A stretch of DNA of 64,000 nucleotides. Origin: Octopus vulgaris (Eukaryota). A program made the position numbers and the translations under genes. This document shows positions 3,106 to 64,000 of this stretch, piece by piece. The first letter of the stretch is position 1. Each line of letters opens with the position of its first letter. The notes beneath the pieces are model-generated. The model did not search any database. It had not been told where the DNA came from and worked only from the letters and a program-made list of their open reading frames with translations. The stretch spans positions 17,546,001 to 17,610,000 of the forward strand of contig OX597830.1 of the NCBI GenBank assembly GCA_951406725.2. The letters are read 5' to 3'.

Positions 3106-3138
3106 GCTACCTCTTGTGTTAATATTGTTACTTTCTGT

Positions 3139-3517
3139 AAGGCGGCGAGCTGGCAGAAACGTTAGCACGCCGGGTGAAATGCGTAGCCGTATTTCGTCTG
3201 CCGTTACGTTCTGAGTTCAAATTCCGACGAGGTCGACGTTGCCTTTCATCCTTTCGGGGTCGATTAAATAAGTACCAGTTACGCACTGGGGGCGATTTAA
3301 TCGACTTCATCCGTTTGTCTGTCCTTGTTTGTCCTCTCTGTGTTTAGCCCCTTGTGGACAGTAAAGAAATAGGTCTGTCTTTATGTTCTGAGTTCAAATT
3401 CCGCCGAGGTCGACTTTGCCTTTCGAGGTCGATAAATTAAATACCAGATGCGTACTGGGGTCGATCTAATCGACTGCCCCCCCCAATATTTCGGGCCTTG
3501 TGCCTAGAGTAGAAAAG
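3139..3517 (+). mobile_element. SINE family A, dimeric copy
   Basis: Starts AAGGCGGCGAGCTGGCAGAAACGTTAG, B-box-like GAGTTCAAATTCC, core repeated twice; 18-bp TSD AATATTGTTACTTTCTGT at 3121-3138 and 3518-3535. Confidence 0.9.
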
Positions 3518-6539: not shown

Positions 6540-6708
6540 GCAGGAGTAGGTCGATTACAACGAACCTAGTGTTCAACTGGTACTTATCGACCGTGTAAGG
6601 CTGAAAGACAAAGTCGGCCATGGTGGAATTTGAACTCAGATCGTAGAGACGGACGAAATGCCGCTAAACAATTTTACCCGGCGTGCTAATGGTTCTGTCA
6701 GCTCGTTG
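6540..6708 (-). mobile_element. SINE family A, degenerate
   Basis: GGAATTTGAACTCAGA...CGAAATGCCGCTAA...CGGCGTGCTAA is the reverse complement of family A. Confidence 0.75.
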
Positions 6709-6862
6709 CGTTACGGCACCATCTGTTAAAAGACAAAGGAGCTAGATTCCAAGAGAAGTTACGGCAAAAATTTGTAAAGGGAAGTTCAGGAGTGTGGATA
6801 AGTTCGTAAGCTGTATGGTGAAGTGAAATCTGATGTCTTGGAAATCTTTGTCTGAGAGATGT

Positions 6863-7625
<763 letters not shown>

Positions 7626-8403
7626 GACATATATATACAGAGTGAGAGAGAAACAGAGACAGACAGAGAGGAAAAGAATTTTGAGTGACAATTTTTATTC
7701 TCTCTGTCTCAAAGGAAAAGGTAACCCGAACAGTCAGGTTCCTCTACTGTCCACGACATACAAATTTCTAAGTATATTAATAGCCGGGTACTGAACATGG
7801 CGATAAATTAAAAGTCAAACGAGGACGTAGATTAAACGATTGAGTCACTGGAGGTTTGTCAGATTATGAGTCGTTTTCCATTGTGTGTACCGTAGTTTAG
7901 AATATTCAACTTTTCAGGATCATTGCTTCAAGCAACAATTATAAGTTGTTGGTGTTAGCGTTTAATTTAAAATCAAATACTTTCAACTGTATTCATCTCG
8001 TCTGTATCATGTGCCTTTCCTGTGTAAGCCGGTCAGTTGTAATTTAGAACATTTATTCGCTATTTCTAGCAGCCAGGCGAGAGAAAGTGTAGAGTTTCTA
8101 TTGCTTGATATATTATAATATAATATGTAATATAATATAATATAATATAATATAATATAATATAATATAACATAATATAATGTAATGTAATATAATATAA
8201 TATAATATATGGATTATATACACAAGTTCAACGATGGTACACATGGACACACACATATAGTATTGATAGTGATCTCGAAGTTTTGGCCGGCAAATGTATT
8301 GAGTAATCCTTCAATTTATTGCAAAATTTTCTTTATCATAACATAAAAACACACATTAATATACTTATACATACATACATACATACATACATACATACAT
8401 ACA

Positions 8404-9885: not shown

Positions 9886-9943
9886 ATTTCTTTACTACCC
9901 ACAAGAGGATAAACACAGCGGGGACAAACATGGACAGACAAAC
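9886..9943 (-). mobile_element. 5'-truncated SINE family A insertion (3' tail only)
   Basis: Reverse complement of the family A tail, flanked by a 15-bp TSD GGGTCCCTATTACCT at 9871-9885 and 9944-9958. Confidence 0.85.
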
Positions 9944-13639: not shown

Positions 13640-14005
13640 ATTTTCTTGTACACTTTTCAGTTATTGGATTGTGGCCATGCAGGAGCGCCACATTGAATAG
13701 TTTTAGTCGAATAGATCGACCCCATTGCATATTTATCTGGCAGGTTCTTATTGTATCAGTTTCTTTTGCTGAACCGCTAATTTTCGGATATGTAAACCAA
13801 CAAATACTGGTGGTGGGGGACACTCAACACAAACACACATACACATATATAACACATATATATGACTTCAAAAAGGATATAGATTTTTTTTTTTAGAAAA
13901 ACTGAAATCCCGAGACAAACTCTTGCCCATGGTGCCGCGCAGTGGGATTGAACCCGAAAGAATGTGATTGGGAGCAAACGTCTTACTACACAGCTACCCT
14001 GCATC
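13640..14005 (-). mobile_element. SINE family B, degenerate
   Basis: Homologous to the copy at 23198-23585. Confidence 0.7.
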
Positions 14006-14832: not shown

Positions 14833-15045
14833 AGACAGCGAGCTGGCAGAATCGTTGGCACGTCGGGCAAAATGCTTAGCGGCATTTTGTCCGTCTTTAC
14901 GTCCTTGGTTCAAATTCCGTCGAGGTTGACTTTGTCTTTTATCGTTCGTGATCGGTAAAATAAATACCAGTTGAGCACTGGGGTCGGCGTAATTGATTTA
15001 AGCCTTCACCCTCAAATTGCTGGTCTTCTGCCAAAATTTGAAAAC
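14833..15045 (+). mobile_element. SINE family A, degenerate
   Basis: GCGAGCTGGCAGAATCGTT...CACTGGGGTCG matches family A. Confidence 0.75.
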
Positions 15046-16941: not shown

Positions 16942-17599
16942 CTATTTATCTGAGACTCCGTTGTCTAATGGATTCTTAATTGTAAGATTAGTGCTTGATC
17001 TGATGGAGCTTTGGCTGCTATTTCTAACAGGTCAAGCACCAGCACCAGCTCCAGCTTCAGCAGAAGCAGAACCACCACCACCACCACCTCTCTCCTTGAA
17101 ATAACCGATAGTAACAACATTATCATCGATATTTTTTTCCTCTATCATTAGAAATATTAGCGGGACACGTGAATATTTCACTAATGGTAAACTTATTTAT
17201 TTCTCGAAACCTTATCCAAAAAAACCTGAAAGCATTTTGGAAAGATAGTCGCTCATTGAAAAGTGAAAGAAATTGGAATACGATGATTACTTAATGCACT
17301 TTATATACTTTATGCTTAATTTTATAGGCTCAATACACAACACTCTCCCTCTGTCTCTCTCACTCTTCGCCTTACCCTCCTTTTTCTTTCGCTTTTCGCC
17401 TTTTCCTTCAAACAGTCACGTGAAAGCTTTACAGACGGACAACATAATCGAAGTAAAAAACACCTTGTTAAAAAAATACACATTTCACTAACCTTCCCCT
17501 TCTCAACCCCTCCCATTCTTCCTCTCCCTCCTCCTTAAACTAATCATGTGGAAGCGTAACGGACGGGCTAAGTAACGGGGTGACAAACAGAATTGTAGA

Positions 17600-17785
17600 T
17601 ACTTTCTACTATAGGCACGAATCTCGAAATCTTGGGTGAGGGGACCATCAGCCCCATTGCTCGACTTATACTTATTTTACCGACCCTGAAAGGCTGAAAA
17701 GCAAAGTCGACCTCTGCGAAATTTGAACTCAGAACATAAAGACGGACGAAATGCCACTAACGATTCTGTCTGCTTGCTACCTCAC
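17600..17785 (-). mobile_element. SINE family A, degenerate
   Basis: CGACCCTGAAAGG...GCAAAGTCGACCTC...TTTGAACTCAGAAC. Confidence 0.7.
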
Positions 17786-22263: not shown

Positions 22264-22717
22264 CTGTATATTTAGATATGCAAATATGCATAAACAAGCA
22301 TTAAGGGATAAATGAAACATCAGTCATTGGCAAAAAAAGTCATTTATATAAATACAATACATTCAATTATATATTACATGGAAAGGATTAAAATATATCA
22401 CAACATATGTCGATATATAACAATATAAAACAATGCATCCTCAAAACAGTGGACTGTATCAGCCTTTGCTTTACCCTTGGATAACATTGATGGCGTGGAG
22501 AGGAGAGGCTGGAATGCATGAGTAACTGCTGGTCTTCCATAATGAATCTTGCCCGGATTTGTGCCTCAGAGGTGAACTTTCCAGCGGCAATCCCATGGTC
22601 ATTCATGACCGAAGGGGTTCTTTACTCAGGTCACTTCAAGTCCAGAACAACCTGACACTCATGGCAGTTTCCCTCTCCCAAAAGTAAACTTCAGACTGAA
22701 TTGAAACTTAAACTTTT

Positions 22718-22951
22718 AAGGCGGCGAGCTGGCAGAAACGTTAGCACGCCGGGCGAGAATGCTTAGCGGTATTTCGTCTGTCGTTACGTTCTGAGTTCAA
22801 ATTCCGCCGAGGTCGACTTTACCTTTCATCCTTTCGGGGTCGATAAATTAAGTACCAGTTACGCACTGGGGTCGATGTAATCGACTTAATCCGTTTGTCT
22901 GTCCTTGTTTGTCCCCTCTGTGTTTAGCCCCTTATCGGCAATAAAAGAAAT
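22718..22951 (+). mobile_element. SINE family A
   Basis: Near-consensus copy with an imperfect GAATTGAAA... TSD. Confidence 0.9.
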
Positions 22952-23197
22952 AAGAATTGAAATTTAACTCTTTCAAGCGTACCAGTTGCTCCTCGCACCC
23001 ACTTTCCATTAAAATTTCTCAAGGATAGAAGCCCACACTTCACTTTCATCTTTATAAGAGGTTGATCGAAGAAGCTAGCGTCATGTTATAAACCATTTCA
23101 AATGCATCAATCATGCAATTTCTATTTTCATGGCCACAATCGAAAATAAAAGAAAACTCTCTAACTTGCCCGCATTTAATAAAAACTATTTGACGCA

Positions 23198-23585
23198 GGC
23201 GTAGGAGTGGCTGTGTGGTAAGTAGCTTGCTTACCAGCCACATGGTTCCGGGTTCAGTCCCACTGCGTGGCACCTTGGGCGAGTGTCTTCTACTATAGCC
23301 TCAGACCGACCAAAGCATTGTGAGTGGATTTGGTAGACAGAAACTGAAAAGAAGCCCGTCGTATATATGTATATATGTGTATGTGTGTGTTTGTTCCCCC
23401 AACATCACTTGACAACCGATGCTGGTGTGTTTACGTCCCCGTAACTTAGCGGTTCGGCAAAAGAGACCGATAGAATAAGTACTAGACTTACAAAGAATAA
23501 GTCCTGGGGTCGATTTGCTCGACTAAAGGCGGTGCTCCAGCATGGCCGCAGTCAAATGACTGAAACAAGTAAAAGAGTAAAAGAG
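23198..23585 (+). mobile_element. SINE family B, full length
   Basis: A box TGGCTGTGTGG, B box GGTTCAGTCCC, CORE-like CCTTGGGCGAGTG, internal (TA/TG)n, and (TAAAAGAG)n tail. Confidence 0.92.
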
Positions 23586-24335
23586 TAATATTTCAGCGTT
23601 TCCTTTTCTAACCTCGTGTAGTTTCTTAGTAATAATAATTTGGACAAGGAACGAATGTGTGAATAAAGGCTTCACCACTCTCAGCGCGTCTGAGACAAAC
23701 CTGACTCTGTGTGTGTGCGCATGCGTATGTGTGTGTGTGTGTATGTGTGTGAGTGCGCATGCACGATCACACAGAAAAAAAAGAAAGAGAAAACAAGACA
23801 TAGAAATAGAAGATAAACGCACACACGCGTAACACATCTACATATATTTTTGGAAATATAAATGGGAATATAAAATCAAAACTAAAAACCCAATAAAAAA
23901 CGGAGGGAAAAAAACCCCTCCAACAGAAAACGATGTAAAAATTGCTAGTAAGAGTATAAATATTGAATCAATATAACTGAAAGCCATCTTCCAAATTCTT
24001 GGTATCGTTATCTTTAAATGAAAAAAACAAAAACTTCTATTTTATTTTTTGGTCTTTTAGCTTAATGCAGATGTAAAACGTCGTGGAATTTTCTGGAAGA
24101 GAAGACAAGTACGACAACGAGGCAGAATGCAGGCCCTTCTATGGATGGTTCTGAGGGTTTATGGATACATGTATCTATGTATCTATGAAAATGTACGTAT
24201 ATCTATTTTTCCTATATGCATGTGTGTGTGTGTGTGTACAGATGGCTGGATGGATTTACAATACATGCGTGTGCATATACAAATATTCTTGTACATGTAT
24301 AGTTAAGTATACTTGTATATTTACACACGTGTATT

Positions 24336-24368
<33 letters not shown>

Positions 24369-24390
24369 ATGTATAAATAAATAAATAAAA

Positions 24391-24425
<35 letters not shown>

Positions 24426-24689
24426 TACATACATATTTATATATATATATATGTGTGTGTGTGTATGAGCTGCTATAACTAATACAACAGAAGATTCAGA
24501 CCAAACCCCATAACAAGACATACCGATGCAGTACAATATTCTACCCCACCGTCACAAAGTGCAGCAAATGATGTAATAGAAAGTTGCTTGAAACTATGAG
24601 ATGTTGAAAAATAATAGTCGTGATGACGTTGGTGACGAATGATACCTTACCTCAGTTTATCAGAGACAGGAATTTCTGTAGAAACCTAA

Positions 24690-26062
24690 AAGAAGGGGTT
24701 ACAGAAAACGGATGTCAACACTTTGGGTAGAGCAGGGTATGTTTCAAGTGACTGAGCAGAGACTAGTAGATGAAGCTAATGCTGTTAGGAGAAGAAAGTG
24801 TATGATAGAATTGGAGGTGGAAGAGATTACAGAGATCAAAAGAGAACTGGAAAAGAAATATCAGGCAGTAGAAAAGACAAACAACAACATAAGAGATACA
24901 GCTCAAACTAAATAAGAACCTAAAGGAAAAAATAACAATAGCGTCTCCAGTAAGGAAGAGACAACTGGCACTAGTGATTTAAGCGATTTAAGTGAGGAAG
25001 ATCAGAAGATTTTAGATGAGTTACAGGAAGTAATGAGTAAAGAAGTAAGAAAAGGATTGCCAGCATTAAAAGGCATCAACAGAAGGAAGCTGCTAGAGAT
25101 GACTAGGAAAGTAGATTCTGTTATCAATAGGATAGATACTAAAAATGTAGGAAGGGTAATAGTTACTAGAAGATTAGATAGTCCAGAAGGTAAAATTAGA
25201 AAAGAGCAAATGTGGAAAAGGTGATTACAAAATAAAGTGAAAATTTAAGACAAGATCAGAGTACTATAGAAGCCTGGAAACTGAAAATGTTGGGAAACAC
25301 AAGATTCAAATCTTCTCTTGAGAAAAGATACTTAGTCAAAGAGAAAGGATTTTGGACTGTTATAGAAGAGTTGAAAGTGCGTATCATAGCAATAGCAGGT
25401 AAGCTTTCCAGATATCAGAAAATAATCGATCAGTATCAACAGAATAGATAATTTGAGACAGACTAGAGGAGATTTTATAACCAAATAAATAGTGGAGAAT
25501 AAAGAACTGAAGATGAGATACCTAATTCAGACGAAGCTAGAAAATTCTGGAATAATATTTGGGATAAGTCAGTCACTCATAATGGAGATGCAGTATGGTT
25601 AAAGAAAGTGAGGGAAGAAATAGTGAGTGAGAAGCAGCCAGGTCCAGGACCAGATTTGTTTCAAGGGTATTGGCTAAAGAAATTCAGTAGTCTACATGGG
25701 AGGCTGAGGGAACAGCTTCAGGATTACCTTAATGGAGGAATAATACCAGATTGGATGCCTAGAGGGAGAACAATACTCCTTATGAAAGATTAAAGCAAGG
25801 GTAATACAGCTAACAATGGAAGACCAACAACTTGCTTACCTTTAATCTGGAAGCTGTTAACAGGAATGCTTTTAGAAAGCATTTACGAGCACCTTGGTAG
25901 CTAGAATTTATTGCCAGAACAGTAAGGTTGCAGGAAGAAGGCAAGAAGTAAAAGCTAGAAAGAAAAATCAAACAATAGCATGGATAGATTATAAGAAAGC
26001 CTATGATATGATCCCACACTCAAGGATAAGTGAATGTTTGAGTATGTTCAGTATAGCAAATA
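24690..26062 (+). pseudogene. R4/Dong-clade LINE, N-terminal and RT remnant
   Basis: TEQRLVDEANAVRR; PGPDLFQGYWLKKF...PDWMPRGRTILL; AWIDYKKAYDMIPHS; many stops and frameshifts. Confidence 0.85.
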
Positions 26063-26065
26063 CCA

Positions 26066-26252
26066 TGTGTTTGTTCCCCCAACATCGCTTGACAACCGAT
26101 GCTGGTGCGTTTACGTACCCGTAACTTAGCGGTTAAAAGAGAACGATAGAATAAGTACTAGGCTTACAAAAATAAGTCCTGGAGTCGATTAGCTCCACTA
26201 AAGGTGGTGCTCCAGCATAGCCGCAGTCAACATGACTGAAACAAGTAAAAGA

Positions 26253-26291
<39 letters not shown>

Positions 26292-26509
26292 TGCAGGAGT
26301 GGCTGTGTGGTAAGTAGCTTGCTAACCAACCACATGGTTCCGGGTTCAGTCCCACTGCGTGGCATCTTGGGTAAGTGTCTTCTGCTATAGCCCCGGGCCG
26401 ACCAAAGTCTTGTGAGTGGATTTGGTAGACGGAAACTGAAAGAAGCCTGTCGTATATTTATATAGACGGATATACTGAAAGAAGCCTGTATATATATATA
26501 TATACATAC

Positions 26510-26541
<32 letters not shown>

Positions 26542-26723
26542 TTGTCCCCCTAGCATTGCTTAACATTGCTGGTGAGTTTACGTCCCCGTCACTTAGCGGT
26601 TCGGCAAAAGATTCCGATAGAATAAGTACTGGGCTTACAAAGAATAAGTCCCGGTGTCGATTTGCTCGACTAAAGGCGGTGCTCCAGCATGGCCGCAGTC
26701 AAATGACTGAAACAAATAAAAGA
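26066..26723 (+). mobile_element. Two SINE family B copies (3' half 26066-26253; full 26289-26723)
   Basis: Homologous to the copy at 23198-23585. Confidence 0.88.
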
Positions 26724-26726
26724 GTG

Positions 26727-26787
<61 letters not shown>

Positions 26788-26882
26788 CAATGCTTCATGA
26801 AAACTATTCTACTCTAATATGCATACATACATATATTACACACATACACACATGCATACACACATATACATGCATGCATACA

Positions 26883-26914
<32 letters not shown>

Positions 26915-27409
26915 CACACATCAACGTGTGTATATGTATGACGACGACGACGTCAATAACAACATCAGGATTAAAGGCAGCAATGGCGACAGCAGTTACA
27001 ACTTTCGAAATAAACCCGCGAAGCTCTAGAACGGGTTTGTAGCACCGATGAGGAAAACTATGAGGATAGCATAAAACAACACAGCAAAGGCGAATTTTAA
27101 TAACAGGAGTAAAACAAAAGCTGAGGAGGGGGCATTGGTGGGAATGTGTGTGTAGGGGGCGGATGTTCAGTGTTGATACTTCTTTGTGACGTCTAATAAG
27201 GGGGAAACTGTCTTTTGTGAAGTGGAATAAATAACAAAGAATAAGGCAGTCAGCTTGGATGAACAGCAAATATTTCAATGTTTATATTTCCTTGTTGTGC
27301 AGTGTTGTTCGTATGTCACGCTCTCTCATTCTACTTCCCTCTCTCTTTCTTTCTCTGTACATACATACATATATACATACATGCATATTATATACATACA
27401 TACCCATAC

Positions 27410-28180
27410 ACATCATAGTGATTTGGGATACAGAAGAGAAGCTACGTACGGTAGTAGAGATCAGCAGCCCTAAGGTGGCGAGATGGCAGAATCGTTAATA
27501 CACCGGGCGAAATGCTTAGCGGTATTTCGTCTGCCGCTACGTTCTGAGTTCAAATTCTGCCGAGGTCGACTTTGCCTTTCATCCTTTCGGGGTCGATTAA
27601 ATAAGTACCAGTTACGCACTGGGGTCGATGTAATCGACTTAATCCGTTTGTCTGTCCTTGCTTGTCCCCTCTCTATTTAGCCCCTTGTGGGTAATAAAGA
27701 AACAGGTATTTCGTCTGCCGCTACGTTCAGAGTTCAAATACCGCCAAGGTCAAGTTTGCCTTTCATCCTTTCGGGGTCGATAAATTAATTACCAACTACG
27801 CACTGGGGTCGATGTAATCGACTTAATCTCTTTGTCTGTCCTTGTTTGTCCCCTCTGTGTTTAACCCCTTGTGGGCAGTAAAGAAATAAGAAATCAGCAT
27901 CCCAGCAGATGTCAACATAAAGCTAAAGATCAGCGAAAAAGAAAATACCTACACTGAACTATTGAAAAATCTACACTTACTCTATCTAGATTACAAGTCA
28001 GTTTTATACCTGTAATTATTGGGGAACTGGGATATGTAACACACTGCCTAAGTACTAATCTTGAGAAATTAGGCTTCTCAAAACCAGAAAGGAGAAAGCT
28101 GATTCGAAGATTACAGATCCAAGCCATCACTGGAACCGTTAATATTTGTAAAACTTTCCAGAAATTTATTGTTTAAGTAT
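27410..28180 (+). pseudogene. RLE-domain C-terminus of a non-LTR retrotransposon, split by a SINE
   Basis: IVIWDTEEKLRTVVEISSP [SINE] ADVNIKLKISEKENTYTELL...PVIIGELGYV...QAITGTVNICKTF. Confidence 0.7.
27472..27887 (+). mobile_element. SINE family A, dimeric copy
   Basis: Core and tail repeated twice; imperfect TSD AGA(G/A)ATCAGCA(G/T)CCC. Confidence 0.9.
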
Positions 28181-33517: not shown

Positions 33518-33895
33518 ACGGCGAGCTGGCAGCAAAATGCTTAGCGGTATTTCGTCTGCCGTTACGTTGTGAGTTCAAATTCCGCCGAGGTCGACTTTGC
33601 CTTTCATCCTTTCGGGGTCGATAAATTAAGTACCAGTTACGCACTGGGGTCGATATAATCGACTTAATACCTATGTCTGTCCTCGTTTGTTCCCTCTGTG
33701 TTTAGCCCCTTGTGGATAATAAAGAAATAGGTATTTCGTCTGCCGTTACGTTCTGAATTCAAAAGAGACCGATAGAATGAGTACTAGGCTTACAAAGAAT
33801 AAGTCCTGGGGTGGATTTGCTCGACTTAAAGGCGGTGCTCCAGCATGGCCACAATCAAATAACTGTAACTAGTAAAAGAGTAAAAGAGTAAAGAG
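33518..33895 (+). mobile_element. Chimeric SINE: family A joined to the family B 3' end
   Basis: Family A sequence to ~33762, then AAAGAGACCGATAGAATGAG...(TAAAAGAG)n of family B. Confidence 0.85.
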
Positions 33896-36907: not shown

Positions 36908-36989
36908 CTACTGCTGCGGTTGCTTTGCTCCGTGTCCTCACTGGTCGAGTTGACCTTTATCCAAAGATCATTCTAGGCCTGAAGTTACT

Positions 36990-37402
36990 GGTTGAATCGT
37001 TAGCACGCCGGATAAAATGCGTAGCAATATTTCGTCCGGCTTGGTGCAGTGGTTGACTTGGCCTTTTATCATTTCGGGGTCGATAATTTAAGTTCCAGTG
37101 AAACATTGGGGTTGATGTAATCGGCTGGGTTGCTCCGACAAAATTTCAACCCTTGTACCTTTAGAAAGGATTCTTCTTATTGTTATTAAGGTGCTGAACT
37201 GGTAGAATCGTTAGCACATCGGGTAAAATGCTTAGCGGCATCTCATCCATCCTTACGTTCTGAGTTCAATTTTTACCGCGGTCGACTTTGCCTTTCATCC
37301 TTTCGGTGTCGATGAATTAAGTATCAGTGAAACACTAGGGTCGATGTAATTGACTAGTCCCTTCCCCAAAAAATTTCAAGCCTTGTACCTTTAGCAGAAA
37401 GG
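36990..37402 (+). mobile_element. Two degenerate SINE family A copies
   Basis: GAATCGTTAGCAC...GGGGTCGAT motifs occur twice. Confidence 0.75.
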
Positions 37403-37409
37403 ATTATTA

Positions 37410-38800
37410 TTATTTTTTCCTTCTTTTTTCAAATTTTCTTCCGTTTCTCGCCGAGTGTTTTCCGTACACCTAGGGCAGAGAAGCTCATTGTATGCATTCC
37501 CAGATTACACGCGCTAATTCACAGGTAAAATATGTATCTAAAAATTAATAAATATATAAATTCATGAATGAATGTTGTTTACACAGCGATAATACTCTTC
37601 TCAGTACATGAGCCGTTCCAGTTAATACAACTTTTTGCACTTCCTGTAGGGATGGTAAGCCTGGTATCATTTTCAAATAGGTTTCAGTACCTTTTTTTTT
37701 TTATCATTCCTAGAGATCCTACAATAACTGGTACTATAGTCGCCTTGAGATGCCACATTTTTTCAATTTCTGTTAGCAAGTGTTTATATTTACTGATCTT
37801 GTCAAATTCTTTCGCCGCTATATTGTGATCGCAAGGAATACTCATGTCAATTAATAAACACATCTTTTTTGTCTGATCTTTTATAATAATATCCGGTTTA
37901 TTAACTTTTATAGTTTTGTACGGGGAAGTCCCATAGAATCGACTCATTTTCTCCCTCAGTCACAACTTCACGATGGTGTTTATACCATTTGTCAGCGGTT
38001 TTGATTTTATAATGCCGGACATATTGTCCAATGTAAATACTGACCGACTCTGTCATATCTTGCTTTATATTCCACAGATGCTAAGACTCTACACCCTGAG
38101 ATTATGTGGCCTATATTTTCAATCTCATCATTACAGAATCAGCATTTTGGGTCAGCTCCATTTTTTATCACATTAGCTTGGTAGTTCCGGGTTAATAAGC
38201 TTTGATCTTGAGTAGCTAATATGAAACCTTCACTCTCTGCTTTTAGCCCTGAGCTTCGTAACCATTGATGCGTGTGTTTCTGGTCGACATCAGCTTGTTT
38301 GCTACGGGCCACATGCTTGCTATGCAGAGGTTTCTGTTCCCATCTGCTAGCTAATTTTTCATGTGCTTTTGTCTTTGCAATTAAGTTTATTTTCGTTGCA
38401 GCAGCAGTTGGCGCATTTTCTTTTCTTTGCAGCAGCCGTTGGCGCATATATTTATGTCGATTGGGGCAGTCATATCAATGAGGAGGCATGATTTTTGTCT
38501 GAAGTCTTTCAATATAATGTCTGGCCTATTCGCATCTGTTTTCCTGCCAGTTTGAATGATGAAGTTCGAGAGGAGTGAGATGTGATCATTTTCAAGCACT
38601 GGATGTGGTTTGTGTTCCCACCAGTTTTTATTATAGGGCAGGTCCAGGATTTTGCAAATTACCCAGTGAATATACTGTGCTGCTCTACCAAGCTTGTTGA
38701 GATACTTTGTTGGTGCAAGAGGACTGCACATAGAGACAACATGATCAATGGTTTCATTTTGTTGTTTACGTACACGACATGTTGGGCTACTCCAGTTCTT
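37410..38800 (-). pseudogene. R4/Dong-clade LINE 3' remnants (two RLE segments) with 3' UTR
   Basis: NKPDIIIKD...CLLIDMSIP...KYKHL..EIEKMW; LKAESEGFILATQDQSL; second segment ANRPDIILKD...CLLIDM. Confidence 0.85.
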
Positions 38801-39414
38801 TAATCTCTCTATTTAGGGTTAATTTTTTTGAAACAACATCGTCTCCGAGTTCTCTGAATGAAACCATTGCTCGTAACGTAGCTTCTTAAGGCTAATAAAT
38901 CTGTATTCGTCTGTATTTTACTTTATTTTTTTTTGATAGATTTATCTCCGGGCATAGTGTTTTGGGGGTGTTTTTAAACTTATGAATTATTCACTCTGTC
39001 TGTGTTAGTTCGAAAAATATAAAAATTTGTTTTGTTATTCATTTTTGCTTCGTTTGTGTCACGTACTTTCATATACGTGCATGTGTGCCCTATAAATTAC
39101 ACGTTGTTGTGTAAAAATTGGGTTGTATGTGTAGTCCTATGGGTATTAACATGTATGTATGATTGTGTAGACATTCGAGTGTATGCGTAATTAATCGATT
39201 TACTTACTGTGTTCTTCCACTTATATTTTATAATTTTAAACTTTCCGATATTGATTTTCAATGTGCTTTTTACGCATGTTTCACTGAGACATCGTACATG
39301 GGAGAAATTGTGCTTTGTATGGCAATAAAGTTTCGTTTTTGTGGTTATTTTCGCTAACAGGACGCTTCCTTCTAGTTTTCTGCAAGTTCCTTTATCCCAT
39401 TCTACCCCATTTCA

Positions 39415-41375: not shown

Positions 41376-41747
41376 ACTCTTACTCTTTACTCTTTTACTT
41401 GTTTCAGTCATTTGACTGCGGCCATGCTGGAGCACTGCCTTTAGTCGAGCAAATCGACCTCGGTCTCTTTTTGTCGAACCGCTAAGTGACGGGGACGTAA
41501 ACACACCAGCATCGGTTGTCAAGCAATGCTAGGGGGACAAACACAGACACACAAACATACATATATATATATATACATATATACGACGGGCTTCTTTCAG
41601 TTTCCGTCTACCAAATCCACTCACAAGGCATTGGTCGGCCCGGGGCTATAGCAAAAGACACTTGCCCAAGATGCCACGCAGTGGGACTGAACCCGGAACC
41701 ATGTGGTTGGTTAGCAAGCTACTTACCACACAGCCACTCCTGCGCCT
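41376..41747 (-). mobile_element. SINE family B
   Basis: Near-consensus reverse complement. Confidence 0.9.
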
Positions 41748-45756: not shown

Positions 45757-45950
45757 TACTCTCTTTACTCTTTTACTTGCTTCAGTCATTTGACTGCGGC
45801 CATGCTGGAGCACCACCTTTAGTCGAGCAAATCGACCCCGGGACTTATTCTTTGTAAGCCCAGTACTTATTCTATCGGTCTCTTTTGCCGAACCGCTAAG
45901 TGACGGGGACGTAAACACACCAGCATCGGTGGTCAAGCAATGCTAGGGGA

Positions 45951-46342: not shown

Positions 46343-46427
<85 letters not shown>

Positions 46428-46659
46428 CTTCCGACGCCGTTAGACGTACGTGAATCAGCTCCGTGAATTTGACACCAATTTCATTGGAAATCTATTAATA
46501 GGTTTGAATATTTTTTAATATTTCTGTAGCCAAACCGACCGGCTTCTTGCGGAGCTCGTCGGTTGGGCGAAATTTTGCCCCATTCGGGGTGAAATTGCGT
46601 TTGAAAATTTTGAACATTTGACATTTTTCAACATTTTGAATATTACAACAAGAAAAAAC

Positions 46660-47683
46660 ATGGCTATGAAGCGAACAGTTGGCTGTTCCTTCCTTCAAAA
46701 TACACTCCCTCCGCAAACACGCACAACTCGTACAAAACACCCACTTCACGCCTTAAAAGGCAACAAAGATTCTCCTTCCGAACCGCAGAGCACGCGCTCG
46801 GTTCAAAAGGAAAATGCAAGTCATGACGTCGCGTTCGACGTAATTCTTGATTTTCCCCCTCTGCCTTCACCCAATGCTTTGGTAAGGAAGGAGGAGGGAG
46901 AAAAAACAAATACAAAAATCATCACAAACATTGACACGGAGATAAAAGAAAAAACTTCCAACAATTTTGCTTCTGCTGCGAAGCAAATTTCGGAGGAAGT
47001 TAAGATAACTCTAGAAGATGTGAAAAGAGCGAAGGAATTGTTAAGGAAGGATGGCAATGGTATCTTCCTCAATACTCCAGAAGAGGTGATTGAAAGCACC
47101 AACAAGCAAACAATAATTTACAAAGTTTTCGACAGAAAACTAAAAAGAATAACAAATGCCACACCCCAACAGTTGGAGATAGCTCTAAAGCCCATTTGGG
47201 CCCAAAAGAGCTACGTAACCAAGGGGAAGCGTTTTGGAACCGTGGAGGTTCGCTTCCCAACAGAGGAGCTGGCAAGGGCGAACGCCATTTCGCCCTTGCA
47301 AACTGAGAATTTGTTACTAATTCCAACCCACCTCGGGCGAAGAGTTACAAAAATAAAAATCGACCTCGTCCCCCCTGAATTAAATATGTCATGGCTGGTG
47401 GCAGCTGTCCTCTATGATATAGAGGACACTACCACCATTCTAGATGTCAGGAGAGTGAGGGCGAAAAACTGGTTGGGGATGGGAGTGCTGCTTCTTGCGC
47501 AAATTCAGCAAGAGAATATAAGTAAAGTCCCTGATTTCGTAAGTTTGCCGGACGGCACTAGGCTAAACGTTGCTGTGGAGGGGCGAAAGCCAAAATGCTT
47601 TCTCTGCAGCAGCGAAAGCCACTTAAAGAGGGACTGTCCCATTCACAAAAAGAGGATGGAGGCTTTCAGCAAGAGGCAGCAGC

Positions 47684-47729
<46 letters not shown>

Positions 47730-48600
47730 CAAGCAACAACAACAGAAACAACAAAAACAGCAAGAAACACCAAAGGCTGCCACACCACCAACACCATCAC
47801 CAACACCAGCACCAAGACGAGCAACACCACCTCCAACAACAACAACCACCACCAAACCAACACCGACAACCACCACCAAACCAACACCGACACCAGTACC
47901 TCGAAGGTCGACAGCAGCGACATCAACAGTAACAGGAGCAGCGGCACCACCGATACCGGTGGAACCAGAAACTTTTCGTCCTGCTACTGAAGCAGACCCC
48001 TCAACCATTCCTTTGCCGGATGAAGAGATCTCGGATTGTGCGAGCTCTGATTCCAACAAAGGAGAATGGAGTATAGTGCCTCCAAAGAAGAAAAGGAGGA
48101 AGAAACAAAAAGATTTACAGGGGAAGCACGAACAAATAGTGCTTCCCAACATCAACAACAACAACAACAACAACACACACTCACAACAACAAACAACAAC
48201 AACACTTTCGACACCACTACTGCCACTGCCACACACACAAACACACACAGACACAATTACATCAATAAACACAAAGAACCAAAAACTAGTGGAGTACTTA
48301 AAAAACAAAACTAGTACAAATATAACCGATTTCATCATACCAACACAAAACACACCACCAGCACACATTCTCACAATAAAAATAAATGCAAAATCATATG
48401 ATGAAATCAAACAAATATTCCCTAACGATGTGGGATCGCTAGGAAAAGTTTCTCGAAGAAACTTTATAAAAACATTGTGGAAGCACCCGTGCAAAAGCAC
48501 AAGGGAGCCACCCCCACCACCAACAACAGTAAGTAGAGCCTTTTTTTCTCCTTTTTCCCCCTACTTTGAGACATGGCAAATCTTAGAATCGGTTGCTTGA
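46660..48600 (+). CDS. LINE ORF1 protein (646 aa from the first ATG) with RRM-like region and CCHC knuckle
   Basis: KGKRFGTVEVRF; CFLCSSESHLKRDC (CX2CX4HX4C); polyQ and Pro/Thr-rich tail; NLS-like PPKKKRRKK. Confidence 0.88.
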
Positions 48601-51434
48601 ATGTGAGAGGCCTCGGGTCACCTTGGAAACAGGGTCACCTGTTAAACGACCTGAGGTTTCATGATGTGGATGTAGCAGCCATCAGTGAAACCAGGCTCTC
48701 CGACCCGCAGGAACTCGCAGCCCTTTTCGGCGGATACGAGATATTTCTATCTCCGTGTCGGCCGGGAGCGGGCGGTGGTGGTACTGCGGTGTTGTTTCGG
48801 AAGGGCCTGGACCTGAAAATAAGGACAGTCTTCTTGGATCCGGAAGGTAAGTTGGTGGTCCTCGACGTCGACGGTAGTGACGGCGGTGCTTTCAGACTGC
48901 TGGCTGCCTACGCTCCGACAGGAGCAGGGCAGTCGGATTATTTCAAACGTCTGGAAGTTTTCCTGGGAACGTCACGCACTCTAGTACTAGTTGGGGATTG
49001 GAACGCTGTCTTAGACGAACGTTTCGATCGGGTGGGCAGGGGAGCGTCTGTTAGGAGAGGGGGAGGGTGCAAGAGCCTCGCCAACCTACTCGGCCGCTTT
49101 CAGCTGTCCGACAGGTTTCGACTAGACAACCCGAATGTGCCAATGTGGACTTGGACAAACCGCATCGGGTCGTCTAGATCGTACTTAGATAGAGTGTTTT
49201 GTAGGCCAGCGGATAAGGACAGCGTAGGGTGTCCACAATTCCACCTAGTCGAATATACGGACCACAAATTAGTGATCTGTACGGTCGACTTAGATAGGCT
49301 ACATAGACAGGGACCCGGCTACTGGAAGCTGAACGCGTCGTTAACGGCGTGCAAAGCTTACAGAGACCGGATTAGTTTACTAGTTAAGCGGGCGCTCACG
49401 GGGGCAATCATCAACAACAACTGGTGGTTTGCCCTCAAGAGAGCAATTAGAGTAGAGTCGATTAGGTATAGTAAGACTCTAGCTATTGAACGTAGGAAGA
49501 GAGAGCGGGATTTAGTTAAGAAACTAGACGAGGCTCTTGACACTGGCATCGCGACTGACGTGTTGGCGGCAAGGTTGGCCCTCGACCAACACTTCGACGC
49601 CAAACACGAAGGCTGCGTTGTCAGAGCTAAGGCACGTTCGCTAAACGGGGAGGGGACTAGAGCCGCTCGATGGGCCCGCGTGGCGGAGGCGAAGCGAGGC
49701 AACAAAGCAACCATTCGGTCTTTGGTGGACCAGAACGGGCGTGAGGTTACCCAACCGAAGCAGATGTGTACGGTGCTTCAGCGGCACTTTGCTCAACTGT
49801 TTGGGACGAGCGGTGGAACGGACACCAACGGTACAGACTTCGGTGTGTACCTGGACGGACTGCCGCAACTCTCGGACAGCGAGGCGGAGTGCTGCGAAGG
49901 ACCGATATCTGCCTGGGAAGTACAGGAAGCGATGAAGAGTTGCACGAGAGGTAGATCGCCGGGTTTGGATGGTCTGCCCTACGAGCTTTACTTTTCGATG
50001 CCAGACTTGTTTGCGGACCTGTTGGCAAACGTCTACTGCAACTGGCAGCAAAACGGGAGAATTCCTGCTTTTGTCTGTCGAGGGGTGGTGGCTTTGCTAA
50101 AGAAGGACCCAAACAAGGGGGACGTTATAGGGAATTTCCGGCCCATCACTCTGCTCAATGCAGAGTTGAAGATTTTGGCCAAGGTGCTAGCCAAGAGATT
50201 GGCGCTTGTCGTGGACAAGCTGGTCGGCGGGACGCAGACATGCGCCGTGCCGACCAGGTCGATACACGACAACCTCCATCTCATGCGCTACATCATAGAG
50301 AGGGTGGGTAACGACGCTGGCGCGGGTGGGGCTTTGATCAACTTGGATCAGAGTAAAGCCTTCGATAGGGTCGACCATCAGTACCTGGCAGCTGTCCTCA
50401 AGGCAGCCGGCTTCGGTCCAGTCTTCCGCGGGTGGATCGCTGCTTTATACAGCAACATCTGCTCGGTGATACGGGTGAACGGTCACCTTTCGGAACCGTT
50501 CGACATCTCGCGTTCGGTCCGCCAGGGATGCCCTCTCTCCTCCCTCTTGTACATTTTGACTCTCGAGCCATTACTGCGCAAGTTGGAGGCTTTGAGGGGC
50601 ATCCCGCGCGATCTAGGAGGCGGAAACAGCGTGTCTGCTTATGCCGACGACGTCACCGTGGTGGTGTCGAGCCACAGGCACATTAGCCTGATTGGCGAGA
50701 CGCTAAACCAGTACGAAGCGGTGACAGGGGCAAAGATTAACGCGGAAAAGTCTGTGGGCTTGCAACTGGGCACCTGGAGAGGCAAGCCCATGCCGTCCAA
50801 CAGCGTCGTAGGGCGCTGGACAGACGGACCCGTTAAACTGCTCGGGGTCTGGTTCGGTCCGGACCTACAGGTGGATAAGAACTGGGAAGAGGTGACGAGC
50901 AGAGTGGCACGTCTCACCCAGAAATGGGCCGAGAGGAAGCTGTCCCTGAAAGGTCGAGCGGAGGTGGCGAATGCGTACATCGCATCCGTCATCTATTACC
51001 GCTTGACCGTCGTCCCTTGTCCCAACCGCTGGTTGGCCAAGCTGGTACGTCTGCTCTTCGACTTTTTGTGGAAGGGTCAGGTGCCACTGGTCAGGCGATC
51101 CATCTGCTGTCAACGACCGCTGAACGGAGGCCTTGGAATGCCGTGGTTGCTGTTGCGCAGACATGCGCTCAGGCTGCGGCATCTCAAGCGCTTCCTAGAC
51201 GGTGAACAGGTGTGGTCGTCTTTTGTCAGACGCGATTTTCCGCAGCTCGTCTCTTTGACGGAGCTGCAGACCTGGATCAAACGTAGACCGAGAAAGGGCG
51301 CTTGGCACCTCGAGTGCCGTCAAGCCCTCTCCGCCCTCCACCAGGCGGGCAATGCGGTCGGTTACAGCTCCACTCTAGCGTTCTATAGAGGGTTAGTGGA
51401 GGAAAATGCGACGACGTTCTCGGGGAAACTCTAG
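48573..51434 (+). CDS. LINE ORF2: APE endonuclease and reverse transcriptase
   Basis: CLNVRGL, ISET, GDWN, SYLDR, TDH; WKLN; SPGLDGL; NFRPITLLN; LDQSKAFD; VRQGCPLS; YADD. Confidence 0.96.
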   Translation: MANLRIGCLNVRGLGSPWKQGHLLNDLRFHDVDVAAISETRLSDPQELAALFGGYEIFLSPCRPGAGGGGTAVLFRKGLDLKIRTVFLDPEGKLVVLDVDGSDGGAFRLLAAYAPTGAGQSDYFKRLEVFLGTSRTLVLVGDWNAVLDERFDRVGRGASVRRGGGCKSLANLLGRFQLSDRFRLDNPNVPMWTWTNRIGSSRSYLDRVFCRPADKDSVGCPQFHLVEYTDHKLVICTVDLDRLHRQGPGYWKLNASLTACKAYRDRISLLVKRALTGAIINNNWWFALKRAIRVESIRYSKTLAIERRKRERDLVKKLDEALDTGIATDVLAARLALDQHFDAKHEGCVVRAKARSLNGEGTRAARWARVAEAKRGNKATIRSLVDQNGREVTQPKQMCTVLQRHFAQLFGTSGGTDTNGTDFGVYLDGLPQLSDSEAECCEGPISAWEVQEAMKSCTRGRSPGLDGLPYELYFSMPDLFADLLANVYCNWQQNGRIPAFVCRGVVALLKKDPNKGDVIGNFRPITLLNAELKILAKVLAKRLALVVDKLVGGTQTCAVPTRSIHDNLHLMRYIIERVGNDAGAGGALINLDQSKAFDRVDHQYLAAVLKAAGFGPVFRGWIAALYSNICSVIRVNGHLSEPFDISRSVRQGCPLSSLLYILTLEPLLRKLEALRGIPRDLGGGNSVSAYADDVTVVVSSHRHISLIGETLNQYEAVTGAKINAEKSVGLQLGTWRGKPMPSNSVVGRWTDGPVKLLGVWFGPDLQVDKNWEEVTSRVARLTQKWAERKLSLKGRAEVANAYIASVIYYRLTVVPCPNRWLAKLVRLLFDFLWKGQVPLVRRSICCQRPLNGGLGMPWLLLRRHALRLRHLKRFLDGEQVWSSFVRRDFPQLVSLTELQTWIKRRPRKGAWHLECRQALSALHQAGNAVGYSSTLAFYRGLVEENATTFSGKL

Positions 51435-52006
51435 GCGTTGAAGACGACGAACTGAGCAGTCTGTTCGGGAGGACTTTCGGGCCGGGGCCGATGGATAATT
51501 TCCAGAGGTCTCTCGCCTGGCAGTGCTACCGAGGGGCTCTGCCTGTTCGAGATAAACTCTACCGGCACGGAAGTGCCGTCAGCCGGGCCTGCCCGAGGTG
51601 TTGCCAGGACGACGAAACCGTTCTGCACGCACTCGTCCAGTGCCCGAGTATTGCTGAAATATGGGTTTATGTCGAACAGCTACTGTCACGTGTGGGACGG
51701 ATCCGACTATCGGCCGAATCCATAGTGAAGATTGCCCCGCCGACCTCCTTTAACAAGGAGGGCGAGGCCGTTTTCTTGTGCCTAGTGGCTGTGGCGAAAG
51801 AGGTCGTGTGGTGGACTCGTTTAAAAGGGCTAAAGACAGACACTTTCCTCTTTGGTCAAGGCCTCATCAACTTTTTCAAGTTTCACTTGAAAAGGAAGAT
51901 GAGGTTAGAGAGGAAGGTGCTGTCCGATAGCAAGTTTTATGAAAGGTGGGTGAATTGTGCGAGACTGGCCTGTATAAATGGACCAGTTCTCAGGTTTCGC
52001 CTGTGA
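51400..52006 (+). CDS. ORF2 C-terminus after the frameshift, including the zinc finger
   Basis: Frame is open from ~51400 (KCDDVLGETLG...) into ORF 51491-52006, which contains CPRCCQDDETVLHALVQC. Confidence 0.88.
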
Positions 52007-52288
52007 TTTCAAAGAAAAAGGTAATGTAAAAGGAGAAGAAAGGGGACTCTCTACACCCCCTTTTTTTGACCAGGCTCCCGTTGGCTTTTGTAGGGTTTTT
52101 TCCACCGGGAACATTTCGAGACGTCTCCCCCTTTTGGGAGTTTTTCATTGTTTTAATAATCATTGTTTTAAAGTTTTTTTTACACGGATTTTTTAATAAA
52201 CGGACAAAACCCTTTGTAACCTTTCGTCCTGTCCTGTCCCTTTATGTAATCATGCGTGTCAGCCCTTGTGGCCAATAAAAAAGAATTG

Positions 52289-53950
52289 ATTATTATTATT
52301 ATTATTATTATGTGATGAAAATTCACAGCTTATTTTGCTGGGTATGATGGAAAGTGTCAGCTGTCCACACCCAGCAGACTAAGGTGACACTTGTTTACTA
52401 GTCATGCTTCAAGAACCCTGCGAAGAATTCTTGCAGTTCCAAGCAATGCTGTTATTTGTTTGTGTTCCACTTTCACACTTGCACCAATTTTTTTTTGCAG
52501 CCATGCTGGTAGTTGAGTGCTGATCATTCCGAGTATCACGTCTACCCTCCTCATTGACCTCAACCTTCGTATTTCCCACTTCAAATCGTCATAGTTAATT
52601 TTTCCTTCTTCGTTCACATTGATCCTGTTGTCACCGAGACATGCTATGTCGGTTATCATGCACGTTCTTTCTTTTTTATTTACCACAACCATGTCCGGTT
52701 TCCGAAGTCTGGTGAGGAGATCTCGCTGGGTTATTGCATCCCACAGGATTTTGCGATTCTCATTCTAGGTGACTTCTTCTGGGGTTTGCTCATACCACGT
52801 CTTCGCTCTTTGTAGGCCGTGGTTCCCACAGAGCTCCCAATGGATCATTCTTTCCACATTGCCATGGTGTCTTTTATATTAGCGTTGTGCCAGTTTCGGG
52901 CATTCGCTAACGATGTGGCATACCGACACTTTCTGCATTTGTCGCTGTCGGTAGTGTTGTCTATTCTGCACTTCATATAATTGGTCCTTAACGCTTGTTC
53001 TTGAGCTGCGCATACGAGTGCTTCTGTCTCTATCTTCAGGTTACTCCTCCTCATCCATAGCCACTGATTATCTGTATCCGTCTTGGTGTTCACATCTCTT
53101 GCAAACTGACCGTACATGTTTTTCCTTCCATGCTTTTTCTTTTTTGTGTGTGTTTATTTCTTGTTCAAATTTTTCTTTTATAATACAATTTTCAGTTTTG
53201 ATGACGACGGCCTTCTTCGTATGTTTCAACAATGGCTCCGCAGCATTTTTTATATACCACCCTGAGCTATTTTCCACTGCTTCGATACAGTCTTGGCAAG
53301 TGTTCAAAACTCTCCCACCCTTTCTTCTAACAAGTACAGCCTATCGGTGTCACTCTTAGAGTGGAAGGCTCCGTGTATTGTCAACATTTTTCTGGTCTTG
53401 CTATACATTTTCATCACGTCTCTCTTTTGCCATTTTGTAATTCCCGTTCCATACCAAAGTGAAACTATCGACCACGTATTAGCTGCTTGGATTTTATTCA
53501 ATCCAGTCAATTTTAAGCTCAACACCAGCCTTAGTCTTCAGAAATATTCCATCCTCTGTTGCTCTTTCCTTTCCTTCTCCATTATCTCGTTAAACCCTAG
53601 TACACCAAAGTATTTGTAACCTTCCGTCTCAATTTGTGTAAACAAGTCTTAATTCGGTAATTCTATCCCGCTAGGTACTGAACCTTGCCTCTTTTTAGAG
53701 AGATTATTCTGCACTTTTTGAGTCCAAATTCCATTCTAATGTCAGTACTAAAATAGTGGATCGTATTTATCAAGGAACCCACTTGTGTCTTATCCTTGCC
53801 ATACAGTTTTAAATCATTCATGAAGAGGATGTTGTTGAATGTTTGGGATTCTTCCTTTAATTGATACCCCAGGTTCATTTTCTTAAGTACCAAGGTCAGG
53901 GGTAACATGCTCAGAACAAAAAGCAACGGAGATAAGCTATCACTCTGGAA
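52289..53950 (-). pseudogene. R4/Dong-clade LINE, RT to RLE and 3' UTR ending in (TAA)n
   Basis: DSLSPLLFVL, LFMNDLKLYG, MYGQF, TEALVCAAQEQAL, CRKC, KPDMVVV...DIAC, ALLGTARILRRVL. Confidence 0.9.
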
Positions 53951-62690: not shown

Positions 62691-63450
62691 CAGGCTGAAT
62701 AAAAAGTAAGCAACATTTTGAAACATGAAATTTATCACATATTTTAACAATGTGGAAATTTTATTCATCAACATTATAGTCAACTTATTTTTGCCTACGA
62801 GTTACAAGCTTGTTTATTCCGGTAACATAAAAATCTGGAGTTCTGGGTCTGATAAACTCTTTGAACGCACTTTCATCATCGGTTTGATTTTTGAACTCCA
62901 TCTCTCGCAGGAAACAATCAAGGTCTTGAAAATGTGGTAGTCAGTAAGAGAAAAGTCTAAGGAATAAGCTGGGTGGGGAAGAACTTCATAGCCAAATTCC
63001 CTCAACTTCTGCCGTGTCATTAGTGAAAACGTGTGGTCGAGCATTGTCATAAAGAATGATTGGCCCTCTTCTGTTGACAAGCTTGGGACGGAAGAGTAGC
63101 AGCTTTCGTTCATTTAGGTAATTTCATGGCATTATGATCCTGCAGTAATGGTTTTTCCAGGTTTTAAGAAGTTATAGCGGATGAGTCCAGCAGTACACCA
63201 CCAAAGGATCACCATAATCTTCTTTTTGAAGGGCTCGGGTTTAAGGAAAGTTTTCGGTGATTCATTTTGGTCCAACAACTGCGAAGAACGTTTTTTTTTG
63301 TTATCATTGTACAGAATCAACTTTTCATCGTAAGTTGCAATAAGGTCGAGCAATGGACCGGTCTGGTTACGGGGAAGAAGCGACGAACAAATTTCATATC
63401 TGTGCATTTTCTGATTTTCATTCAAATCGTGTAGTATCCATTTGTCGAGA
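62691..63450 (-). pseudogene. Mariner transposase remnant with one terminus
   Basis: KWILHDL, ATYDEKLILY and LPHPAYSLDFSLTDYHIF correspond to WVPHEL, TGDEKW and YSPDLAPSD; the end abuts (TA)n. Confidence 0.88.
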
Positions 63451-64000
63451 TATTGCAAAAATCTCGTACATTCTGAGTCTAATACAAAGAGGCCCACCTA
63501 CCTCTAATCTTTCACAGGTTGCCAACTAGATAAAATATGTACAACATTTCTGTCGGTTACTGTAAGCTATAGGATATTCTCTAATGCTTTAATGTACATT
63601 AATCATATATTCAACACTCAACACAATAGCCGTCTGAACAGATGAATGTTTTGACAATGCGACGACCTCTTGTTATATCGTATTGTTATATTCACATTTG
63701 CTTTTATATACACTTCGATTTGCTATCATTGAGATACAAATTTGCATATGTAAACCTCGAACGTTGATGTTGTCAATTAATTCCTGATTGTGAAGTGAAA
63801 CAATATCAAATAAGTATACATGTCTCGGCATAATTCGCTGATATCAACTCTCTTTGTTTATCTTGTCAAGTTTTCTCTCTGATTTATACCTCAAGGCAGT
63901 AGATCGCCTTTTCATATTTTTGCTACTTAAGAAGAAAAGAAAATTATTTTATTATTCTTTGGTTTTCTTTCGACGACAGAGGAGAGAAATATATTTGCTC

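What the first reader, a model, noticed from the sequence alone, without database searches (positions are those of the whole stretch)
52205..52290. L1/Tx1 LINE 3' end resembles the tail of SINE family A
Seen: the LINE ends CTTTCGTCCTGTCCTGTCCCTTTATGT...AGCCCTTGTGGCCAATAAAAAAGAAT. SINE A ends in the pattern GTTTGTCTGTCCTTGTTTGTCCCCTCTGTGTTTAGCCCCTTGTGGGTAATAAAGAAAT (3311-3370, 7565-7625, 27645-27700). Known: shared 3' tails mark SINE-LINE partnerships, commonly for L2, CR1 and RTE but rarely for the L1 clade. Inference: this family or a relative mobilises SINE A by stringent 3'-end recognition.
Basis: partly seen in the sequence, partly recalled or inferred. Interest (0 to 1): 0.7.

Follow-up and report, generated by a model that had tools for sequence, protein, structure and literature searches.

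The report
Octopus SINEs wearing L1/Tx1 tails
Short jumping repeats in this likely octopus DNA carry tails that match the ends of one lineage of L1/Tx1-type retrotransposons, which likely copy them by recognising a small predicted RNA hairpin, a kind of partnership reported for this group in plants and algae but not found for animals in my searches.

Summary
The 3' end of a near full-length L1/Tx1-type LINE (46427-52288) matches the SINE A tail beyond chance: 0 of 600 trinucleotide shuffles and 0 of 25,154 background windows reach the score. Identity is modest (19-21 of 28 terminal bases). The closest relatives whose DNA I could fetch, from squid/cuttlefish-type host DNA, end in tails that match the window's other SINEs (B, C), which share SINE A's head but not its tail; A tails match only the window LINE. 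The best-kept copies of both LINE groups and SINE A/B end in a 3-4 bp hairpin with a CUYGU loop whose stem differs by compensatory swaps. SINE target-site duplications are 14-18 bp; one LINE relative has 16 bp. Best reading: the SINE family swapped tails among branches of one cephalopod L1/Tx1-like lineage that likely recognises this hairpin (stringent type). The direct partner of SINE A is probably a sister family. Mobilisation was not tested, the hairpin is not unusually stable, and Repbase and the host genome could not be searched.

The parts
46427..52288 (+). near full-length L1/Tx1-type LINE, inserted in an (ATT)n microsatellite
   Evidence: ends read from where the (ATT)n runs stop
46660..48600 (+). 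ORF1, 646 aa, CCHC zinc knuckle preceded by a likely RNA-binding region; 24-28% identical to ORF1 of the squid-type relatives
   Evidence: no Pfam hit
48573..52006 (+). ORF2 (AP endonuclease, RT, zf-RVT), broken by one frameshift near 51400-51434
   Evidence: an indel at this place is common among related contigs
52007..52288 (+). 3' UTR, no poly(A) tail
52207..52286 (+). LINE terminal segment homologous to the SINE A tail (pyrimidine tract, hairpin, A-rich end)
52262..52272 (+). predicted hairpin GCC-[CUUGU]-GGC
3140..3517 (+). SINE A + 5'-truncated SINE B dimer inside one exact 18-bp duplication (3121-3138 / 3518-3535)
7399..7626 (+). SINE A copy next to (TA)n
9886..9943 (-). tail-only (58 nt) SINE A insertion with an exact 15-bp duplication
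22719..22951 (+). SINE A copy, about 14-bp duplication, B-box-like motif at 22795
27473..27888 (+). SINE A + 5'-truncated SINE A dimer, about 15-bp imperfect duplication
33519..33763 (+). SINE A copy followed by a SINE fragment
36988..37396 (+). two SINE B copies; the second tail (37358-37393) matches the squid-type LINE tails
14833..15045 (+). SINE with a third tail type (C) that matches the L111 LINE branch; 14-bp duplication with one mismatch
17597..17777 (-). degraded SINE B copy

Best explanation
The SINE A tail matches the 3' end of this L1/Tx1-type LINE, and it was likely taken from this LINE's branch, whose reverse transcriptase likely copies the SINE by recognising a predicted small hairpin (3-4 bp stem, CUYGU loop) just before the A-rich end. 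One SINE head and body (tRNA-like by A/B-box motifs; inferred) carries at least three tails, A, B and C, each closest to a different branch of the same cephalopod LINE lineage, so the SINE likely survived by tail swapping within that lineage through template switching. The LINE endonuclease would cut the target and leave 14-18 bp duplications; reverse transcription would start at the RNA's 3' end, which can give a tail-only insert. The direct partner of SINE A is more likely a sister family than this exact copy's family.
For: Chance tests. Reciprocal pattern: 6 of 6 A tails tested match the window LINE (z 3.9-6.3) and none of 7 squid-type LINE tails (z 2.1 or less); B37189 matches 6 of 7 squid-type tails (z 3.0-6.6) and not the window LINE (0.6); C14833 matches L111 (z 6.9). 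Those LINEs were fetched by protein likeness, not by DNA, and fall in the same 15-row clade as the window ORF2 (SH-aLRT 98, quick tree). A model built from 8 squid-type LINE tails alone ranks two SINE B tails first and second of 18 window hits (E 0.0077, 0.085). Hairpin stems: GGC/GCC in squid-type LINEs and SINE B3372, GCC/GGC in the window LINE, CCC/GGG in SINE A; 87.5% of cells pair against 64.1% in shuffles, 3 of 4 pairs change on both sides, 0 of 500 shuffles reach the covariation score, and slid controls are lower. SINE A shares the second-pair swap with the window LINE. 5 of 12 elements examined show 14-18 bp duplications; one squid-type LINE copy has 16 bp. No poly(A) in LINE or SINE. 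In public runs of three species labels, summed contig depth is higher over 52188-52261 than over 52151-52187 in 3 of 4 runs clearly (a weak hint that the tail is shared more widely than the UTR).
Against: Terminal identity SINE A to LINE is only 19-21 of 28, and the upstream part needs gaps. The window LINE tail does not align to the 7 squid-type tails beyond chance (z 0.2 or less) and neither it nor SINE A is among the 18 hits of the squid-type model: only the 11-nt hairpin links them, and I defined it after seeing the sequences. Folding energies are ordinary (z -0.01, 0.03, -0.38, -1.29). The covariation rests on about two independent swaps; rows A7399, B36988, B17777 and D6708 were left out, and several SINE copies break the stem. 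SINE D6708 matches no LINE tail. 7 of 12 elements gave no clear duplication. A squid Ceph-SINE with an RTE-derived body also has a CUYGU hairpin, so the motif may not be exclusive to this lineage.
Confidence: 0.68

Rival explanations
1. The tail is a relic: it came from this LINE lineage, but SINE A is now copied by another LINE (such as RTE) or without tail recognition.
For: Only about 70% terminal identity against 90-93% among SINE A copies; several young copies break the stem; RTE-BovB stands out in octopuses (PMC8967140, passages) and would leave duplications of similar length (recalled).
Against: The SINE A stem differs from the LINE by a compensatory swap rather than decay; SINE A ends without a tandem-repeat tail; O. 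vulgaris has 13 recently active L1-Tx1 families (PMC13282606 Table 1).
Confidence: 0.17
2. Chance or convergence: two pyrimidine-rich tails with an AATAAA-like end and a tiny hairpin look alike without common origin.
For: blastn E 0.56; pyrimidine part alone not significant (81 of 600); window LINE and squid-type tails do not align overall; a similar hairpin occurs in a Ceph-SINE.
Against: 0 of 600 trinucleotide shuffles and 0 of 25,154 background windows; still 6 of 600 without the A-rich end; independent B and C matches to the same clade; both matches lie at the extreme 3' end.
Confidence: 0.08
3. Reverse direction: this LINE copy or family picked up a SINE A tail by template switching or 3' transduction.
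For: The window LINE tail is closer to SINE A than to its squid-type relatives.
Against: The hairpin sits at the 3' end of all squid-type subfamilies, where no such SINE head was found (small sample of host DNA); the tail is present in many related contigs of three species labels; identity is too low for a recent capture.
Confidence: 0.07

Closest known systems
Stringent L1-clade pairs in plants and algae: LINE1-1_ZM with ZmSINE2/3; L1-1_CR with SINEX-3_CR (PMC3472496 part 1 of 3; PMC3747384 Table 1)
   Same: L1-group LINE sharing a short 3' end with SINEs; terminal hairpin with conserved loop and compensatory stem
   Different: Animal host; loop CUYGU rather than UCU; no poly(A)/poly(T) end; several tail types on one SINE head. 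Table 1 of PMC3747384 lists no animal SINE with an L1 or Tx1 tail.
Crocodilian SINEU and Tx1-Mar (PMC4494074, passages)
   Same: A Tx1-type LINE proposed as SINE partner in an animal
   Different: SINEU is linked by shared target sites, has poly(A), and no LINE sharing the SINEU-1 3' end was found; here the tail itself is shared.
Mollusc HCD-SINE partnerships with CR1, CR1-Zenon, L2, Nimb (PMC11481361, PMC4824008, passages)
   Same: Tail swapping on a common SINE head; 35-61 bp homologies at 72-95% identity
   Different: None of the partners named there is of the L1/Tx1 group; cephalopods were not covered in PMC11481361.
Octopus OK/OR1/OR2 tRNA-SINEs (Ohshima and Okada 1994; seen only as a citation; OR1/OR2 called CORE-SINEs in PMC4824008 and PMC4758252)
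   Same: Possibly the same families as SINE A/B (shared head, different tails; recalled)
   Different: Sequences not available to me; identity untested; no LINE partner for them appeared in the passages I read.
Microsatellite-targeting Tx1 families Kibi and Koshi (PMC4494074, passages)
   Same: The window copy sits in a microsatellite
   Different: One insertion only; relatives and SINEs sit at varied sites, so target specificity is not shown.

Membership tests
L1 group non-LTR retrotransposon (L1/Tx1) | ORF2 with N-terminal AP endonuclease, RT and C-terminal zinc region, after an ORF1 | tested here: met
   Pfam PF03372, PF00078, PF13966; best solved relative human L1 ORF2p, E 2.9e-52 over residues 4-861, R2 only 1e-23 (no CR1, L2 or RTE chain appeared among the 10 hits, so those were not compared)
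Tx1 clade | RT phylogeny groups with named Tx1 elements | not testable with these tools
   No named Tx1 or L1 reference rows in the tree; it shows only that the window ORF2 and the squid-type LINEs form one clade
Tx1 clade | ORF1 with RNA-binding domains and a CCHC knuckle (recalled trait) | tested here: met
   CX2CX4HX4C in ORF1; Atlas neighbours are CCHC and ZCCHC3-RBD proteins at 0.87-0.92
Tx1 clade | target-sequence preference | tested here: inconclusive
   Window copy in (ATT)n; relatives form head-to-tail arrays with differing junctions; SINE targets vary
stringent SINE-LINE pair | homologous 3' ends | tested here: met
stringent SINE-LINE pair | conserved stem-loop with compensatory changes | tested here: met
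   small stem, about two independent swaps, ordinary folding energy
stringent SINE-LINE pair | compatible target-site duplications | tested here: inconclusive
   SINE 14-18 bp in 5 of 12 elements; 16 bp for one relative; window LINE unresolved in the microsatellite
stringent SINE-LINE pair | concurrent activity and tail-dependent trans-mobilisation | not testable with these tools
   needs whole-genome age profiles and an assay
tRNA-derived SINE | [quoted passage not shown] | tested here: inconclusive
   B-box-like motif at 22795 and A-box-like start; about 230 nt; ARAGORN 0 genes and no tRNA hit among 62 Rfam matches in 22600-28000
MetaSINE / CORE-SINE | central domain alignable to the published consensus | tested here: inconclusive
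   By eye unlike BivaMeta and BivaMD; short motifs of the central part absent from that supplement; OR1/OR2 sequences not found in the supplements searched

The most novel reading that the evidence does not exclude
A cephalopod L1/Tx1-like lineage has kept stringent, hairpin-based 3'-end recognition since before octopus and squid split, and drives the octopus SINE explosion: one SINE head has hopped between its branches (tails A, B, C), and the unexplained tail of squid Sepioth-type Ceph-SINEs carries the same CUYGU hairpin. This would be an animal case of tail-sharing with the L1 group and would support stringent recognition as the ancestral L1 state.
Probability: 0.5. Interest if true: 0.78.

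Novelty: new variant of a known kind. Interest (0 to 1): 0.62.

Why it matters
[quoted passage not shown] An animal L1/Tx1 lineage with a defined 11-nt hairpin, natural compensatory variants and intact ORF2 copies in a relative makes that idea directly testable. It also offers a candidate engine for octopus SINEs, which make up 11.6% of the O. vulgaris assembly, most of the recently active families unclassified (PMC13282606).

Tried and rejected
No whole genome is held, so no search for a better-matching octopus LINE was possible. Viral contigs gave nothing for the SINE body or ORF2. Distant L1-like loci (25-39% identity) do not show the hairpin at their ends: 2 of 45 had a weak stem within 900 nt, and many contigs stop early. 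The window's SINE head was not found in the squid-type host DNA or in the genome behind L120; these are small samples. L120 was first taken for octopus DNA, but the shared stretches were simple repeats. The opposite-strand LINE next to the element (52312 onward) does not match the SINE A tail (not among the top windows). The Sepioth-type SINE tail does not align to the LINE tails beyond chance (8 copies, best z 2.3): a lead only. No RNA holder was listed among public runs, so expression is not addressed; the laid contigs gave no usable loose ends at the 3' tail. Rfam gave only low-complexity matches. Earlier scan notes: nothing. The careful tree did not finish; the quick tree is quoted.

Full report
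Setting. The window is microsatellite-rich animal DNA. I take it to be octopus: this is inferred from its SINE load and from the closest relatives of its LINE lying in squid/cuttlefish-type DNA; no call names the organism, and no genome is held. Public runs of three species labels hold the LINE's 3' part (20 of 24 listed rows).

The LINE. It runs from about 46427 to 52288 between two (ATT)n runs. ORF1 (46660-48600) has a CCHC knuckle and resembles RNA-binding/CCHC proteins. ORF2 (48573-52006) has endonuclease, RT and zf-RVT domains and one frameshift near 51400-51434; its best solved relative is human L1 ORF2p. This places it in the L1 group; Tx1 versus another L1 branch could not be settled without named references. 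The (ATT)n after the element also reads as the tail of an opposite-strand LINE fragment, so it is probably target, not LINE tail.

The SINEs. One head and central region occurs 12 times at E below 1e-26, among 17 hits, with different tails: A (7 tails, one of them tail-only), B (4 copies), C (14833) and D (6708). A copies are 90-93% alike; B, C and D heads are 78-82% like A.

Is the A match real? Yes. Blastn alone gives E 0.56, but gapped scores beat 3000 of 3000 dinucleotide shuffles and 600 of 600 trinucleotide shuffles; none of 25,154 windows from other loci reaches it, and the LINE end is first of 2119 window positions and the best non-member hit of a tail profile (E 0.022). The pyrimidine part alone is not significant (81 of 600); without the A-rich end 6 of 600 shuffles reach it. 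Terminal identity is 19-21 of 28.

Relatives. A scan by protein found ORF2 relatives at about 43% identity in non-bacterial contigs of one MAG, G001, with 66 matches there. Their flanks hold repeats that match the published Sepioth-SINE1/2A sequences by eye, so the host is likely a squid or cuttlefish. In a quick tree of 43 rows the window ORF2 and P0001 (99) join these LINEs in a 15-row clade (SH-aLRT 98). Their 3' ends are conserved across subfamilies: a C-rich tract, GGC-[CUYGU]-GCC, a second hairpin and an A-rich end without poly(A).

The reciprocal pattern. In one search, 6 of 6 A tails tested match the window LINE (z 3.9-6.3) and not the 7 squid-type tails (z 2.1 or less). B37189 matches 6 of 7 squid-type tails (z 3.0-6.6), B3372 all 7 at z 2.2-4.6 and the window LINE at 3.0, C14833 matches L111 (6.9), B36988 and B17777 match weakly (up to 2.6 and 3.3), and D6708 matches none. 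A covariance model made only from 8 squid-type LINE tails puts two B tails first and second among 18 window hits. Against this, the window LINE tail does not align to the squid-type tails overall (z 0.2 or less), and neither it nor SINE A is found by that model.

The hairpin. What links all groups is 11 nt: stems GGC/GCC (squid-type LINEs, B3372), GCC/GGC (window LINE, 52262-52272) and CCC/GGG (SINE A) around CUYGU. On 18 rows, 87.5% of cells pair (shuffled 64.1%), 3 of 4 pairs change on both sides and the covariation score exceeds all 500 shuffles and all slid controls. Cautions: the structure was chosen from these sequences, it rests on about two independent swaps, four degraded or shifted rows were left out, and folding energies are ordinary. 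Such a hairpin occurs 6 times on both strands of the window, 5 of them in these tails, and in 2 of 45 distant L1-like loci, weakly.

Insertion marks. 5 of 12 elements examined have 14-18 bp duplications, two exact: 18 bp around an A+B dimer and 15 bp around a 58-nt tail-only copy. One squid-type LINE copy has 16 bp. This fits an L1/Tx1 endonuclease but also RTE (recalled), so it does not discriminate.

Mechanism. Shown: tail homology, tail-type specificity, compensatory stems, duplications, no poly(A). Inferred: pol III transcription of the SINE, binding of the hairpin by ORF2 of this lineage, target-primed reverse transcription from the 3' end, and tail exchange by template switching. I put tail homology at about 0.85, present mobilisation by this lineage at about 0.68, and this exact family as partner at about 0.3.

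What is known. Table 1 of PMC3747384 (read) lists L1 tails only for maize/sorghum and Chlamydomonas SINEs; PMC3472496 (part 1 of 3) describes their compensatory hairpin. SINEU is tied to Tx1-Mar by target sites, not tails (PMC4494074, passages). Bivalve SINEs use CR1, CR1-Zenon, L2 and Nimb (PMC11481361, passages; PMC4824008, parts 1-3 of 6 and supplement). Octopus repeat papers give amounts but no partner in the parts read (PMC13282606 part 1, passages and supplement search; PMC8967140 passages). I also saw passages of PMC4758252, PMC5786205, PMC5804259 and PMC3531059. Nine searches showed no report of an animal SINE sharing its tail with L1/Tx1; Repbase entries, subscription papers (including Ohshima and Okada 1994) and unseen supplements may hold one.

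Verdict. A real feature, a new variant of the known SINE-LINE tail partnership, with an unusual partner group for animals and a testable motif. Interest 0.62.

Noticed in passing
G001 contigs (L081-L122, L126-L175): The squid-type relatives form long head-to-tail arrays of near-identical, mostly intact LINEs (period about 6.4-6.8 kb, 66 matches), with array-specific junction sequences; perhaps self-targeting. The contigs are host DNA inside a bacterial MAG.
   Followed up: partly
L156:11064-11204, L174:11189-11332 and other G001 flanks: Sepioth-type Ceph-SINE copies, whose 3' part is labelled unknown in the supplement of PMC5786205, carry GAC-[CUYGU]-GUC about 38 nt from their end: same loop, another stem variant, but no significant overall match to the LINE tails.
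   Followed up: partly
window 3140-3517, 27473-27888, 33519-33763, 36988-37396: SINEs recur as head-to-tail dimers; in three the second unit starts near position 49-56 of the head, and one A+B dimer lies inside a single 18-bp duplication.
   Followed up: partly
window 52312-52900 (-) and 38387-38812 (-): Fragments of other LINEs with a likely restriction-like endonuclease motif (recalled; Dong/R4-like); the first ends in (TAA)n, the run in which the L1/Tx1 element sits.
   Followed up: no
window 6498-6712 (-): SINE with the common head and a fourth tail (D) that matches none of the LINE tails tested.
   Followed up: partly
window 63132-63497 (-): Mariner-type transposase fragment (PF01359).
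   Followed up: no
window 13704-13757, 23465-23525, 41439-41560, 45800-45950: Another abundant short repeat family with faint likeness to the SINE central region (E about 0.003).
   Followed up: no
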